DNA of 64,000 nt, from the NCBI RefSeq assembly GCF_988242995.1, contig NZ_OZ547043.1. One strand, written 5' to 3'. Below the pieces are notes generated by a model. That model did no database searches and was not told where the DNA came from. It saw only the letters and a program-made list of their open reading frames with translations. This document shows, one piece after another, positions 54,895 to 64,000 of this stretch. The translations under genes and the position numbers were made by a program. The number at the start of each line of letters is the position of its first letter. The first letter of the stretch is position 1.

Positions 54895-55288
54895 GATAAC
54901 GGTTCATGTATCCCCTGAGCTGACAGTGTACCGGGTATATTAAGCGTAACCGACAGGTTCTCCTTCATACCATATTAAATTTTTCCAGGTATTGCCGCTG
55001 CCTTATTTCGTCCCATACAGGAAAACTCGTCTGGGTTTCTGACAAATACGCGAAACTCACAGCCCCTCAATATCAACCACACGCTGTAAGCCGGTAATAC
55101 CTGAAAATCAGCCTATTACCGCCCGCGCCTCCGTTACCGAACGCTCAGGTGACCAGACTGAAGCCCAGCACGCACTCGTAAAATTTGCGGTCAGTTCCGT
55201 CAGTCAGTGGGCAACCGCAGAGTTACGGGCTTCCAGGTCCACAGGAGTGAGTCTATAAGTAAGCGTCAACGGAGCACCGTATTGACGC

Positions 55289-56902
55289 TTATTTATTGGT
55301 GAGTACTACGTTCCATGGCAGGAGTTCGCCAACTCGGTTGGAAGGCCATTCCGGCAGTACGCTCAGAATATGGCGCAGATACGCTTCCGGATCGATACCG
55401 TTCAGACGGCAGGTGCCGATCAGCCCGTACAGCAGTGCACCACGCTCGCCGCCGTGATCGCTACCGAAGAACACGTAATTTTTCTTTCCGAGACAGACTG
55501 CACGAAGCGCTCTTTCCGCTGTGTTATTGTCCGCCTCCGCCAGACCGTCATCACAGAAGTTGCACAACGCAACCCAGTGCTTCCTGATATACCGGAACGC
55601 ATCTCTCAGACGGCATTTTTTCGATAACGTGTGTTCTTTCTCCTGCATCAGCTTATACAGGGAAGTCAGTAGCGGTTTACTCTGCATTTGCCTGACCGCC
55701 AGGCGTTCAGACACCGGCAACCCGCGTATTTCGTGCTCAATGGCGTACAGTTCACCGATTAGTTTCAGTGCTTCTTCCGCCGTCGCGCTTTTGGTACTGA
55801 TATATACATCGTGGATTTTGCGCCGTGCATGAGCCCAGCATCCTGCTTCCGTCAACGCGCCGCCTTCACGTTCGGCACTGAACAGCCGATCGTAACCTGC
55901 GAACGCATCTGCCTGCAGGATACCCCGGAAGGGACGAAGGTGTTGCTCCGGATGTTTACCCTGATGGTCCGGTGAGTAGGCGAACCAGACCGCCGGAGGT
56001 TCTGGCGAACCGGCATTTCGGTCATCCCGGACATACGTCCAGATATATCCTGTTTTCGCCTTCTTCCTGCCCGGTGCCAGTACTTTTACTGGTGTGTCAT
56101 CAGTGTGAACCTTGCGGGTGTTCATCACATAACTGTACAGGGCATCATTCAGCGGAGTCATTAACTGGCAGCACGCATCAACCCAGTTGGAGAGTAAGGC
56201 ACGGCTCAGTTCGACACCCTGGCGGGCAAAGATTTCACTCTGACGATACAGTGGCAGATGTTCGCAGTATTTTCCCGTTAACACGCGGGCAAGTAACTCC
56301 GGGCCCGCGATACCACGCTCTATCGGACGGGATGGTGCCGGTGCTTCAACGATGCAGTCACATTTTGTACAGGCTTTTTTTACCCGTTCTGTGCGGATCA
56401 CTTTCAGGGCGCTGCTCACCAGTTCCAGTTGTTCTGCACTGACTTCCCCCAGATAATCCAGCTCACCGCCACACTCCGGGCAACAGCTTTCTTCAGGCTC
56501 CAGGCGGTTTATTTCGCGGGGCAGAAGCTCCGGTAACGGACGACGATGGCGTGACTGTCGCAACTGGCGGGGAACCTGCGGGTCATCCTCTCGCCCACTG
56601 TAACGATCGCTGTCCTGTTCGCGTTGCTTCAGCAGGGCCTCAGCCTGTTCAACTTCACGACGCAGTTTTTCAGAACGGGTACCGAACAGCATCCGGCGCA
56701 GTTTTTCTATCTGAGCCCGCAGATGTTCTATTTCCCGTTCATCTTCTTCGATCTTTTCTTCGGCACGTGCCAGCACAGAACGCAGGAAGGCCTCCGTCTC
56801 TTCAACCAGACTCAGTTGTTGGTCTTTCTGACGGAGGGCTTCAGCCTGCTCAGAGAGCAACCTTTCCAGCTCTGCGATGCGAATGAGGTATTTCTGACTC
56901 AT
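55289..56902 (-). CDS. IS66-family transposase TnpC
   Basis: 537-aa ORF with leucine-zipper N-terminus, CPECGG zinc motif and DDE region. Confidence 0.92.
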   Translation of the reverse strand: MSQKYLIRIAELERLLSEQAEALRQKDQQLSLVEETEAFLRSVLARAEEKIEEDEREIEHLRAQIEKLRRMLFGTRSEKLRREVEQAEALLKQREQDSDRYSGREDDPQVPRQLRQSRHRRPLPELLPREINRLEPEESCCPECGGELDYLGEVSAEQLELVSSALKVIRTERVKKACTKCDCIVEAPAPSRPIERGIAGPELLARVLTGKYCEHLPLYRQSEIFARQGVELSRALLSNWVDACCQLMTPLNDALYSYVMNTRKVHTDDTPVKVLAPGRKKAKTGYIWTYVRDDRNAGSPEPPAVWFAYSPDHQGKHPEQHLRPFRGILQADAFAGYDRLFSAEREGGALTEAGCWAHARRKIHDVYISTKSATAEEALKLIGELYAIEHEIRGLPVSERLAVRQMQSKPLLTSLYKLMQEKEHTLSKKCRLRDAFRYIRKHWVALCNFCDDGLAEADNNTAERALRAVCLGKKNYVFFGSDHGGERGALLYGLIGTCRLNGIDPEAYLRHILSVLPEWPSNRVGELLPWNVVLTNK

Positions 56903-56932
56903 GACCGTTTTTATAATGCGGTCAGGAGTTTT

Positions 56933-57283
56933 TTACAACATTGTCAGTGAGTTAAGGCGGGATGTTTTTGGCTGACGCCAGTCCAGCTTATCGAGGAGCA
57001 TTACCAGTTGCGAACGGGTAATGGATACCTTGCCGTCACGTACCGCAGGCCAGATAAACTGGCCTTCCTCCAGGCGTTTGGTGAACAGGCACAGACCATC
57101 AGCATCAGCCCAAAGAATTTTAACGGTGTCACCCCGTCGGCCACGGAAGATAAACAGGTGGCCGGAGAAGGGATTATCATTCAGCACATGTTGTACCTGT
57201 TCTCCCAGTCCGTTGAAGGATTTACGCATATCGGTAACGCCGGCAACGAGCCAGATACGGGTACCTGATGGGAGTGAAATCAT
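56933..57283 (-). CDS. IS66-family TnpB (Orf2)
   Basis: 116-aa ORF MISLPSGTRIWLVAGVTDMRKSFNGL... Confidence 0.9.
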   Translation of the reverse strand: MISLPSGTRIWLVAGVTDMRKSFNGLGEQVQHVLNDNPFSGHLFIFRGRRGDTVKILWADADGLCLFTKRLEEGQFIWPAVRDGKVSITRSQLVMLLDKLDWRQPKTSRLNSLTML

Positions 57284-57705
57284 CTTCCCCTCCCGCTCAG
57301 TTCGCGGATCAACACCGTGAGCAGCTCTGGCGATGGATTTTCCAGCGTCATGTTACCGTGACGGAACTCCACCTTGCAGGAACTGGCACTGACTCTGGTC
57401 TGAGTGGAAGTGGATAAAGACGGCGCAATGGCCGCCACAGGTTTTTTCTGCTCATCCGGCGTTATTTCTACAGGTAATAATTCAACGCCAGTGTCAGAAG
57501 AGGTCGTTACCGGAAGACGCCGCGAAACACGCCCTTCGTTCTGCCAGAGCCTGAGCCATTTGAAAATAACATTATCATTGACGCCATTTTCACGTGCAAT
57601 CTGTGCAACACAAGCTCCAGGTTGTGATGCCAGTTCCACCATACGAAGTTTGAATTCATTCGAATAGTTTTTACGAGGTTCTTTTCGCCAGTCCTGTAAT
57701 TCCAT
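57280..57705 (-). CDS. IS66-family TnpA (Orf1, HTH)
   Basis: 141-aa ORF overlapping the tnpB start. Confidence 0.88.
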   Translation of the reverse strand: MELQDWRKEPRKNYSNEFKLRMVELASQPGACVAQIARENGVNDNVIFKWLRLWQNEGRVSRRLPVTTSSDTGVELLPVEITPDEQKKPVAAIAPSLSTSTQTRVSASSCKVEFRHGNMTLENPSPELLTVLIRELSGRGR

Positions 57706-61990: not shown

Positions 61991-62005
61991 CCAGGATAAA
62001 GAGCG

Positions 62006-62353
62006 CTACAACATGGTCAGGGATGTCAGTAACCGCTTTGGCTGTCGCCAGTCGATACCTTCCATCAGCATCGCCAGTTGCGCCGGCGTCAGGAACACTT
62101 TGCCATCGCGGGCTGAGGGCCAGGCGAAGCGACCACGTTCTAGTCGCTTTGTCAGCAGGCACAGACCATCGCCGGTGGACCAGAGCAGTTTTACCTGACT
62201 GCCGCTGCGTCCCCGGAAGATGAAGACGTGGCCGGACATCGGGTCATCTTTCAGCGCGGTCTGCACCTTTGCGGCGAGGCCATTGAAGCCGTTGCGCATA
62301 TCGGTGATACCGGCAACCAGCCAGATTTTTGTGCCTGCGGGAAGATTTATCAT
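62006..62353 (-). CDS. IS66-family TnpB (copy 2)
   Basis: 115-aa ORF MINLPAGTKIWLVAGITDMRNGFNGL... Confidence 0.9.
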   Translation of the reverse strand: MINLPAGTKIWLVAGITDMRNGFNGLAAKVQTALKDDPMSGHVFIFRGRSGSQVKLLWSTGDGLCLLTKRLERGRFAWPSARDGKVFLTPAQLAMLMEGIDWRQPKRLLTSLTML

Positions 62354-62733
62354 ACAGGCCCCCGCATCAGTTCGCGCAGGACAGTGCTCATGAGTTCAGC
62401 AGAGGGATGAGTCAGTGTTATTTCTCCTCCCCGACATTTTATGTGGCAGGTAGCGGGAGGAGAGCAGGATGGTAGTTCGAAGGTTGGGAGAGAAGAGCCC
62501 GCCTGAAGCTGCACGGGTATCAGGGCAGGAAGCGACGATGAGTTTTTTCGGGGCCGACAGACCCGCCCTTCACGCTGCCAGAGCCTTATCCATTTAAAGA
62601 GCAGGTTATCATTGACGTCATGTTTCCGGGCCAGTGCGGCAATACTGCCTTCTTCTTCAAGAGCCAGCCTGACCAGTTCCATTTTGAATTCAGGGGAATA
62701 GTGTTTCCGGGGAAGTCTTTCTTTAGCGCGCAT
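62350..62733 (-). CDS. IS66-family TnpA (copy 2)
   Basis: 127-aa ORF overlapping the tnpB start. Confidence 0.88.
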   Translation of the reverse strand: MRAKERLPRKHYSPEFKMELVRLALEEEGSIAALARKHDVNDNLLFKWIRLWQREGRVCRPRKNSSSLPALIPVQLQAGSSLPTFELPSCSPPATCHIKCRGGEITLTHPSAELMSTVLRELMRGPV

Positions 62734-64000
62734 GAGGTGTCCACCTGCAAAATAAGTGGGTGCTTAAGTTACAGGATCCTGGATTCGGGACCAGACGGTA
62801 CTCAGACGACGCTTACAGAGAATGTCCGGAATGACGAGGTTATCTTTGCGGAGATTAAGGCAATGGTATACGGGCCGACGTTCCATGCCGCGTTACTACA
62901 TTCAGCCCGGACGTAAAATGCGCCCGTCAAAAAGAACGGTTCGCTTCGAAACTCAGCCAGGATACCACCTCTCCGCCACACCCGGGAAGAAGTTGATATG
63001 GTGGTTGCCGGACAACAGCACTCCTGGATTGACTGCTGCATCACTCAACCACGCTGAATATCAAAGGAGAGCGTTACCGGTTAAAAGAGAAACGTAAAGC
63101 TGTGGTGATGACCCAAAACGCAACGCCTGTCAGTGAGGATGAAATGGTGAAAAGCGGACAGCATCAGTAACGGAAGTATCTTAGCGGGTACGAAAATGGC
63201 AGGATCGTGACATTGACAGAATATCTCCTGATCATCCTGAATGACTGCAGTTGCTGTAGAAAAGTAAGCTGTCTCCACCCACGGCACCACTTAACAGGCA
63301 TTCCGTAACTTCCCCCAGACTTACTATGACGCATTATCGGTGCACTGAAAACGGGAGAGTGCGCTTAAAACCGCAGACCGCATGCGGGTGTTACTGCATG
63401 ACAGTCTGGCCGTATTGTGAGATGTCGGCAGGAACCGATGTCCGCGCAGGGGGGAACTTCCTGCAGTACCTAACGCTTCAAATGGTATTAACCGTAGGGT
63501 GTTGTTGGTTCCGGATCGCGGAAATGGGAGCACAGGTCTGCTACGGGGTGTACCTCTGACAGTATATCCGGCTCGCTCATCTGACAGCCTCTCTCCCGGA
63601 AAAGACCAAAAATGAGATCGTCTCCTCAACAGCAGAGAAGAGGTCTTGACAGACAGGCTATATTGCATACGATTTATGAAGAAAAAGACAGCAAATATGG
63701 AGGTTATAGCGGAGAATACCCTACGAAATTCCTATGAAAAACGATTGAAAAAAATATCAAATTCGATTCGTTTTTATATGCTTTTTGGGAGCGTGGCGAT
63801 GACGAACTGTTGCATGTGCAGAGGAGAATGCACCCGGAAGCACCAGAATCATCCAGAAAGGCAGAACGATTACGCATCAAACCAGGAGACAGCAATATCA
63901 AGGTAATATACTGATTTAAAATGAATTTACAGCAATACGTGAAAACATTTTTTACTTAAAGGAGACAGATGCGCTGAAGAGAGTGCAGGTATTTTTATAT

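What the first reader, a model, noticed from the sequence alone, without database searches (positions are those of the whole stretch)
55251..62824. Two different IS66-family elements, each with a perfect 8-bp duplication, bracket an alpA module
Copy 1 (55259-57790, duplication GTCTATAA) and copy 2 (60381-62816, duplication AGAGAATG) are distinct IS66 isoforms in the same orientation. Intact duplications mean both are simple insertions, probably recent. A third, 3'-only IS66 fragment near 46.2 kb is nearly identical to copy 1. These homologous copies could mediate deletion or inversion of the intervening cargo.
Basis: seen in the sequence. Interest (0 to 1): 0.4.

Follow-up and report, generated by a model that had tools for sequence, protein, structure and literature searches.

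The report
Two ordinary IS66-family insertions flanking alpA
Two different, intact jumping genes of the well-known IS66 family inserted separately into junk DNA of a decaying E. coli genomic island; their boundaries are exactly as reported, but they are too unlike each other to recombine, so this is ordinary.

Summary
Copy 1 (55259-57790, 2532 bp) and copy 2 (60381-62816, 2436 bp) are complete IS66-family elements. Both have tnpA-tnpB-tnpC on the minus strand, GTAAGCGT termini and perfect 8-bp duplications. The decisive test was the population one. Reconstructed empty sites with a single copy of each 8-mer occur uninterrupted at 99.9-100% identity in 2327 (site 1) and 409 (site 2) complete E. 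coli genomes. Copy 1 is annotated as ISEc43 family. Copy 2 is an unnamed relative of ISEc8/ISEc22 (~83% nt). Copy 2 came first: it occupies its site in 273 genomes, including strain 55989, where site 1 is empty. Copy 1 occupies its site in about 21 genomes, and the 20 near-identical ones carry copy 2 as well. The two copies share 60% nt identity and a longest exact run of 15 bp, so deletion by recombination between them is unlikely. The third fragment is 89% identical to copy 1 over 196 bp, not nearly identical. It is in inverted orientation and is split by an ISEc45-like IS110-family element. The locus is identical in the published strain S88 and is already annotated there. Already known; low interest.

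The parts
55251..55258 (.). Target-site duplication of copy 1, left copy (GTCTATAA)
   Evidence: Present as a single copy in empty-site genomes.
55259..57790 (-). IS66-family element, copy 1 (ISEc43-like, 2532 bp). Terminal inverted repeats at 55259-55282 and 57767-57790 match at 20 of 24 positions.
   Evidence: It is 100% identical to DNA in S88 and MS7163 that PGAP annotates as 'IS66-like element ISEc43 family'.
57280..57705 (-). Copy 1 tnpA (141 aa). It overlaps tnpB by 4 bp (ATGA).
   Evidence: NCBIfam NF047595, 83 bits against a cutoff of 74; sequence.
56933..57283 (-). Copy 1 tnpB (116 aa)
   Evidence: NCBIfam NF033819 IS66_TnpB, E=3.2e-35.
55289..56902 (-). Copy 1 tnpC, an intact DDE transposase (537 aa)
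   Evidence: NCBIfam NF033517, E=7.6e-133. Pfam LZ_Tnp_IS66, zf-IS66, DDE_Tnp_IS66 and DDE_Tnp_IS66_C.
57791..57798 (.). Target-site duplication of copy 1, right copy (GTCTATAA)
58561..58767 (+). AlpA-family helix-turn-helix gene (68 aa), native to the island
   Evidence: Pfam Phage_AlpA E=1.8e-5. PHROG 66 excisionase/transcriptional regulator E=7e-9. PGAP calls it a 'helix-turn-helix transcriptional regulator'.
58861..59463 (+). Conserved hypothetical gene (200 aa) downstream of alpA
   Evidence: Annotated as WP_000813432.1 in S88, 55989 and FDAARGOS_497. No match in Pfam, NCBIfam or PHROGs.
60293..60380 (+). Left part of the IS21-family transposase pseudogene that copy 2 split. Its last 8 bp, 60373-60380, are the left target-site duplication AGAGAATG.
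   Evidence: The empty site in O55:H7 CB9615 lies inside a PGAP 'IS21 family transposase' pseudogene. Duplication.
60381..62816 (-). IS66-family element, copy 2 (2436 bp, an unnamed relative of ISEc8/ISEc22). Terminal inverted repeats at 60381-60402 and 62795-62816 match at 17 of 22 positions.
   Evidence: It is about 83% nt identical to ISEc8-, ISEc22- and ISKpn24-family copies over tnpC and tnpB.
62350..62733 (-). Copy 2 tnpA (127 aa). It overlaps tnpB by 4 bp.
   Evidence: NCBIfam NF047595, 75.7 bits against a cutoff of 74.
62006..62353 (-). Copy 2 tnpB (115 aa)
   Evidence: NCBIfam NF033819, E=5.6e-35.
60422..61990 (-). Copy 2 tnpC, an intact DDE transposase. It is 522 aa from the TTG at 61990. 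PGAP starts it at the ATG at 61957, giving 511 aa.
   Evidence: NCBIfam NF033517, E=1.8e-138. Four IS66 Pfam domains. PGAP coordinates.
62817..63170 (+). Right target-site duplication AGAGAATG (62817-62824), followed by the rest of the IS21-family relic (istA remnant and an istB-like 'AAA family ATPase' fragment)
44517..44745 (+). Inner part of the old IS66-family relic (the 'third copy'), separated from its terminal part by an IS110-family insertion
   Evidence: Collinear with the uninterrupted relic in S88. PGAP: 'IS66 family transposase, frameshifted, incomplete'.
44746..46189 (-). Intact IS110-family element (ISEc45-like; transposase 44997-46130, 377 aa) inserted into the relic, with CT on each side
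   Evidence: NCBIfam NF033542, E=2.8e-83. PGAP: 'IS110-like element ISEc45 family'. Absent from S88 at this position.
46190..46397 (+). Terminal part of the IS66-family relic (3' end of tnpC plus the inverted repeat ending ...ACGCTTAC at 46397), in inverted orientation relative to copies 1 and 2
   Evidence: 88.8% identical to copy 1 over 196 bp. A tblastn hit to TnpC1 residues 472-537 at 79% aa identity.

Best explanation
These are two independent, sequential, simple transpositions of two distinct but complete IS66-family insertion sequences. They landed in non-functional DNA of the degraded CP4-44-type genomic island next to cobU in an extraintestinal or avian pathogenic-type E. coli chromosome. 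Copy 2, an unnamed relative of ISEc8/ISEc22, inserted first, into an IS21-family relic. Copy 1, ISEc43-like, inserted later into the intergenic DNA about 760 bp upstream of the island's native alpA-family gene. In each case the element's DDE transposase TnpC, with accessory proteins TnpA and TnpB, joined the GTAAGCGT termini to target cuts staggered by 8 bp, and gap repair produced the perfect 8-bp duplications. This mechanistic step is inferred from knowledge of the family. The alpA module is resident island DNA, not cargo brought in by the elements. The pair is not a functional unit. It is one more layer in a site where insertion sequences accumulate, alongside ISEc45 inside an IS66 relic, copy 2 inside an IS21 relic, and an ISL3 pseudogene nearby.
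For: Exact termini, inverted repeats and duplications are in place. Empty sites with a single 8-mer occur at 99.9-100% identity in 2327 and 409 genomes, and both are empty in FDAARGOS_497 with the alpA module present. The intermediate state, with copy 2 present and site 1 empty, is seen in 55989 and many others. Occupancy is 273 genomes for copy 2 and about 21 for copy 1; the 20 near-identical copy-1 carriers all have copy 2 as well. All six ORFs are intact and meet the IS66 family models. Copy 2 occurs at 99.5-99.8% identity at unrelated chromosomal and plasmid sites, so it moves. ISEc43 has been reported to make 8-bp direct repeats (PMC6531882). The classic IS66 layout of TnpA, TnpB and a DDE transposase with GTAAGCGT termini is described in PMC12888890. 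Site 2 lies in an IS21 pseudogene. Site 1 lies between annotated genes.
Against: Nothing contradicts simple insertion. There are two caveats. First, one genome (Z1323CEC0014) carries a 96%-identical mosaic IS at site 1 with imperfect duplications GTCTATAC and GACTATAA, so the history of site 1 is not a single clean recent event in every lineage. Second, transposition activity and the roles of TnpA and TnpB are inferred from the family, not shown here. The order of insertion rests on population frequencies and nesting, not on a phylogeny.
Confidence: 0.95

Rival explanations
1. The two elements form a composite (compound) transposon that brought in, or can mobilise, the alpA module as cargo.
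For: The two IS66-family elements are direct repeats flanking a 2.6-kb segment, and both begin with the same 8 terminal bases, GTAAGCGT.
Against: Each element has its own matched duplication, and the outer ends do not share one. The alpA module sits at the same place in genomes where one or both sites are empty. The elements are only 60% identical, their TnpA proteins are 41% identical, and their inverted repeats diverge after base 8. Every full-length match of the block, query flanks included, was at the same chromosomal locus.
Confidence: 0.01
2. The copies act as substrates for homologous recombination that deletes the alpA module (copy 1 with copy 2) or inverts the 46.4-55.3 kb segment (copy 1 with the relic).
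For: Copies 1 and 2 lie in the same orientation, and the relic is inverted relative to copy 1. Recombination or gene conversion does appear to occur among closely related IS66 copies: in Z1323CEC0014 the IS at site 1 carries a tract (56084-56819) with ISEc23-type alleles at about 35 consecutive variable sites.
Against: Copy 1 and copy 2 share 60% identity and a longest exact run of 15 bp. Copy 1 and the relic share 89% over 196 bp and 75% over 461 bp, with a longest exact run of 23 bp measured on the S88 version of the relic, and the relic is split by ISEc45. Both values are at or below the minimal homology for efficient RecA-dependent exchange (general knowledge). No hybrid or deleted allele appeared among the best matches, although no systematic search was made.
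Confidence: 0.03
3. Copy 1 has a regulatory effect. By separating alpA from upstream DNA, or by reading outward, it changes expression of alpA and ORF200, and so the behaviour of the island.
For: Copy 1 lies about 760 bp upstream of alpA in otherwise non-coding DNA.
Against: No promoter-like site was found anywhere in 57700-60400 (0 found against 2.4 expected), so there is no evidence for either an outward or a native promoter. No integrase gene is annotated in the stretch examined. The insertion is rare, in about 21 genomes, with no sign of selection.
Confidence: 0.05

Closest known systems
ISEc43 (IS66 family; ISfinder name as used by NCBI PGAP)
   Same: Copy 1 is 100% identical to DNA in S88, MS7163 and others whose transposase PGAP names 'IS66-like element ISEc43 family'. 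It has the tnpA-tnpB-tnpC layout. The 8-bp direct repeat matches that reported for ISEc43 in SGI1-B-Ec1 (PMC6531882).
   Different: Nothing detected. ISEc23 is a close relative at 92.7% nt identity.
ISEc8 / ISEc22 / ISKpn24 group of IS66-family elements
   Same: Copy 2 has the same architecture, the same GTAAGCGT termini and an 8-bp duplication. It is about 83% nt identical to these elements over tnpC and tnpB, bases 1-1955 of the element.
   Different: Megablast similarity stops before tnpA. PGAP gives the transposase only the generic name 'IS66 family transposase'. By the usual ISfinder criteria (general knowledge) it is a separate IS whose name I could not determine.
CP4-44 / CP4-57-type degraded islands of E. 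coli (alpA, YeeP-like GTPase)
   Same: The island sits next to cobU. It carries an AlpA-family gene, a GTPase family protein, a dynamin family protein, an RdcB family protein, and many IS relics.
   Different: No integrase gene is annotated in the stretch examined. The alpA gene here gives only a moderate Pfam score of 24.9 bits.

Membership tests
IS66 family of insertion sequences | Three consecutive ORFs tnpA, tnpB and tnpC, with tnpA and tnpB overlapping (ATGA) | tested here: met
   Both copies have them. The 4-bp overlaps are at 57280-57283 and 62350-62353. NCBIfam TnpA and TnpB models score above their cutoffs.
IS66 family of insertion sequences | TnpC is a DDE transposase with leucine-zipper, zinc-finger, DDE_Tnp_IS66 and C-terminal domains | tested here: met
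   All four Pfam domains are present in both proteins, with DDE_Tnp_IS66 at E=1.5e-95 and 3e-103. NF033517 scores 443 and 462 bits against a cutoff of 180.
IS66 family of insertion sequences | Imperfect terminal inverted repeats beginning 5'-GTAAGCG | tested here: met
   20 of 24 and 17 of 22 positions match, and all four ends begin GTAAGCGT. The same terminus is described for other IS66 members in PMC12888890.
IS66 family of insertion sequences | 8-bp target-site duplication | tested here: met
   Perfect 8-bp repeats flank both copies and were verified against empty-site alleles. An ISEc23 copy in an ST131 genome also has an 8-bp duplication, GACTACTG.
IS66 family of insertion sequences | Demonstrated transposition activity | not testable with these tools
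   Only indirect evidence is available: presence/absence polymorphism at both sites, and 99.5-100% identical copies at other loci and on plasmids.
ISEc43 (copy 1) | At least 95% aa and 90% nt identity to the ISfinder reference ISEc43 | not testable with these tools
   The ISfinder reference is not available. The only proxy is PGAP's 'ISEc43 family' label on identical DNA.
Composite transposon | Two copies of the same IS flanking cargo, with one target duplication at the outer ends and the unit found at more than one site | tested here: not met
   The two ISs are different (60% nt). Each has its own duplication. The cargo is present at empty-site alleles. The block was found at one locus only.
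AlpA family (Pfam PF05930) | Small MerR-like/excisionase-type helix-turn-helix protein matching Phage_AlpA | tested here: met
   Phage_AlpA E=1.8e-5 (24.9 bits) over residues 13-59, and HTH_17 E=1.9e-4. PHROG 66 E=7e-9. The regulatory function was not tested.

The most novel reading that the evidence does not exclude
Site 1 (GTCTATAA upstream of alpA) could be a preferred target for ISEc43/ISEc23-group elements, or the IS there could be repeatedly remodelled by gene conversion. The basis is that a divergent mosaic IS (96% identical) occupies the same position and orientation in one other genome, with imperfect duplications. Alternatively, copy 1 could alter AlpA-dependent regulation of the island.
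Probability: 0.05. Interest if true: 0.2.

Novelty: already known. Interest (0 to 1): 0.07.

Why it matters
It matters little beyond annotation. The two insertions are clean, datable presence/absence markers for lineage tracking: copy 1 is in about 21 and copy 2 in 273 of 5426 complete genomes. They also illustrate how insertion sequences pile up in already-dead island DNA, including inside each other's relics. The useful correction for anyone modelling genome instability is that sharing an IS family is not the same as sharing recombining homology. These two copies are 60% identical and should not be counted as a repeat pair.

Tried and rejected
1. The composite-transposon reading was rejected on the empty-site alleles and the separate duplications.

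2. Recombination between copy 1 and copy 2 was rejected on 60% identity and a 15-bp longest exact run.

3. 'Nearly identical third copy' was rejected: 89% over 196 bp, 75% over 461 bp, inverted, and split by ISEc45.

4. I looked for a function for ORF200 (58861-59463) and the 100-aa antisense ORF (58152-58454). Neither matched anything in NCBIfam or PHROGs, and ORF200 also matched nothing in Pfam.

5. I looked for structured RNAs and promoters in the bracketed segment. There were no Rfam hits in 54-64 kb and no sigma-70-like promoters in 57700-60400.

6. I tried to obtain the primary IS66 literature (Han et al. 2001, guessed id PMC95320; Siguier et al. 2014, guessed id PMC7190074). Neither id is held in the library, so family definitions rest partly on general knowledge plus PMC12888890 and PMC6531882.

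7. I could not assign an ISfinder name to copy 2. PGAP names it only generically, and its nearest named relatives are about 83% identical.

8. I considered sequencing error as the explanation for the Z1323CEC0014 variant. I rejected it because the differences are mostly substitutions with 3-nt periodicity and fall in tracts.

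
Full report
**What is there**

The + strand reads ...GGAGTGA GTCTATAA | GTAAGCGTCAACGG... at 55251/55259, and ...TTTACGCTTAC | GTCTATAA CGCGTG... at 57790/57791. The second element reads ...CTGGC AGAGAATG | GTAAGCGTGCAG... at 60373/60381, and ...GACGCTTAC | AGAGAATG TCCGG... at 62816/62817.

The terminal inverted repeats match at 20 of 24 positions for copy 1 and 17 of 22 for copy 2. All four ends begin GTAAGCGT.

Each element carries three intact minus-strand ORFs.
- Copy 1: tnpA 57280-57705, tnpB 56933-57283, tnpC 55289-56902.
- Copy 2: tnpA 62350-62733, tnpB 62006-62353, tnpC 60422-61990 (PGAP starts it at 61957).
- In both, tnpA and tnpB overlap by the ATGA typical of the family.

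NCBIfam places the proteins in IS66 TnpA, TnpB and transposase families above the curated cutoffs. Pfam finds the full set of leucine-zipper, zinc-finger, DDE_Tnp_IS66 and C-terminal domains in both TnpC proteins.

**Is it more than chance?**

An exact 8/8 repeat at fixed positions has probability about 1.5e-5. GTCTATAA occurs nowhere else on the + strand of the window.

The decisive evidence comes from the population. I rebuilt each pre-insertion site as 400 bp of left flank including one 8-mer, followed by 400 bp of right flank.
- The site-1 reconstruction matches as one uninterrupted piece at 100% identity. One place covers at least 80% of the query in 2327 of 5426 complete E. coli genomes.
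- The site-2 reconstruction matches at 99.9%, with such a place in 409 genomes.
- In FDAARGOS_497 both sites are empty. The window aligns across each junction with an overlap equal to the single 8-mer, and the alpA module lies between them along with an unrelated IS150.

The 8-mers are true target duplications and the termini are placed correctly.

**Identity of the elements**

Copy 1 is 100% identical to DNA in S88, MS7163 and others that PGAP labels 'IS66-like element ISEc43 family'. ISEc43 is a known element reported to make 8-bp direct repeats (PMC6531882). It is 92.7% identical to an ISEc23 copy, which has its own 8-bp duplication.

Copy 2 receives only the generic label 'IS66 family transposase'. 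Its nearest named relatives, ISEc8, ISEc22 and ISKpn24, are about 83% identical over tnpC and tnpB, with no megablast similarity over tnpA. Copies at 99.5-99.8% identity sit at unrelated chromosomal and plasmid sites, so the element is mobile.

The two copies share only 60% nt identity. TnpC is 62%, TnpB 65% and TnpA 41% identical at the protein level. They are different IS species, not isoforms.

**Order and age**

A 400-bp probe across the left junction of copy 2 finds the occupied site in 273 genomes. The equivalent probe for copy 1 finds it in 20 genomes at 99.5% or better, plus one divergent case.

The full double-IS arrangement occurs in those same 20 genomes, three of which carry an extra IS100. 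Many genomes, including 55989, the FORC_069, FORC_043 and FORC_029 strains and 2013C-3252, have copy 2 with site 1 empty and are otherwise 99.9% identical.

So copy 2 inserted first and copy 1 later. 'Recent' is a fair description of copy 1 but less so of copy 2.

**Where they landed**

The surrounding window holds dsrA, rseX, tRNA-Ser, four tRNA-Asn genes and cobU. The locus is therefore the CP4-44-type island next to cobU.

Site 2 lies inside a PGAP-annotated IS21-family transposase pseudogene, which is followed by an istB-like 'AAA ATPase' fragment. Site 1 lies in intergenic DNA about 760 bp upstream of a 68-aa AlpA-family gene (Pfam E=1.8e-5; PHROG 66 E=7e-9). Downstream of that gene is a conserved 200-aa ORF with no family match. 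Both insertions therefore hit non-functional DNA.

**The third copy**

Comparison with S88 shows an old IS66-family relic of about 440 bp. In the window it is split into 44517-44745 and 46190-46397 by an intact ISEc45-like IS110-family element at 44746-46189, which has CT on each side.

The relic is 88.8% identical to copy 1 over its terminal 196 bp and 75% over 461 bp. The longest exact run, measured on the S88 version, is 23 bp. The relic points the opposite way to copies 1 and 2. It is not nearly identical to copy 1.

**Can the copies drive rearrangements?**

Copies 1 and 2 share no exact run longer than 15 bp. That is below the roughly 23-27 bp needed for efficient RecA-dependent exchange in E. 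coli (general knowledge), so deletion of the alpA module by recombination between them is unlikely. Inversion between copy 1 and the relic is borderline at best.

Recombination among close relatives does seem to happen. In Z1323CEC0014 the IS at site 1 is 96.3% identical to copy 1. A tract at 56084-56819 carries ISEc23-type alleles at about 35 consecutive variable sites, and the duplications are imperfect, GTCTATAC and GACTATAA. This genome is the only such case in the collection. I did not resolve its history.

**Composite transposon?**

No. Each element has its own duplication, the two elements differ, the alpA module is present at empty-site alleles, and the block was found at one locus only.

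**Verdict**

This is a textbook pair of independent IS66-family insertions in a decaying island. It is identical in the published strain S88 and already annotated by PGAP. Novelty: already known. Interest: low.

Noticed in passing
window 44746-46189 (transposase 44997-46130, minus strand): An intact IS110-family element, which PGAP labels 'ISEc45 family' and NCBIfam labels 'IS110 family RNA-guided transposase', is inserted inside the IS66 relic. It has CT on both sides (44744-44745 and 46190-46191). S88 has the uninterrupted target AAAAACTTTATG. A query spanning this insertion and its flanks is covered at 80% or more in 399 genomes.
   Followed up: partly
window 60293-60380 and 62825-63170: Copy 2 is nested inside an IS21-family relic, made of an istA pseudogene and an istB-like 'AAA ATPase' fragment. 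The island is a stack of insertion sequences inside the relics of other insertion sequences.
   Followed up: partly
L005 (E. coli Z1323CEC0014, NZ_CP148426.1) 960-3470, equivalent to window 55259-57790: A single genome has a mosaic IS, 96.3% identical to copy 1 with a 21-bp in-frame deletion, at the same site and in the same orientation. Its duplications are imperfect, GTCTATAC and GACTATAA. A tract equivalent to 56084-56819 carries ISEc23-type alleles, and the alpA module beside it is about 3% diverged. Gene conversion among ISEc43/ISEc23-group copies is the likely cause, but the mutated duplications remain unexplained.
   Followed up: partly
window 58861-59463 (+): A conserved 200-aa ORF immediately downstream of the alpA-family gene has no match in Pfam, NCBIfam or PHROGs. 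It is annotated as hypothetical protein WP_000813432.1 in S88, 55989 and FDAARGOS_497.
   Followed up: partly
window 42868-64000 compared with S88 (L001): The window is 99.7-99.8% identical to S88 but not the same strain. It carries the ISEc45 insertion that S88 lacks. The closest complete genomes (E2, Z1323CEC0010, CEA601S, TB4019, TB4328) match the 44.3-46.5 kb region at 99.9% and the double-IS region at 100%.
   Followed up: partly
window 7371-7457, 15860-15949, 25545-39579: The sRNA genes dsrA and rseX, one tRNA-Ser(CGA) gene and four tRNA-Asn(GTT) genes lie upstream of the island. This places the window in the region that sits at about 44 min on the K-12 map.
   Followed up: no
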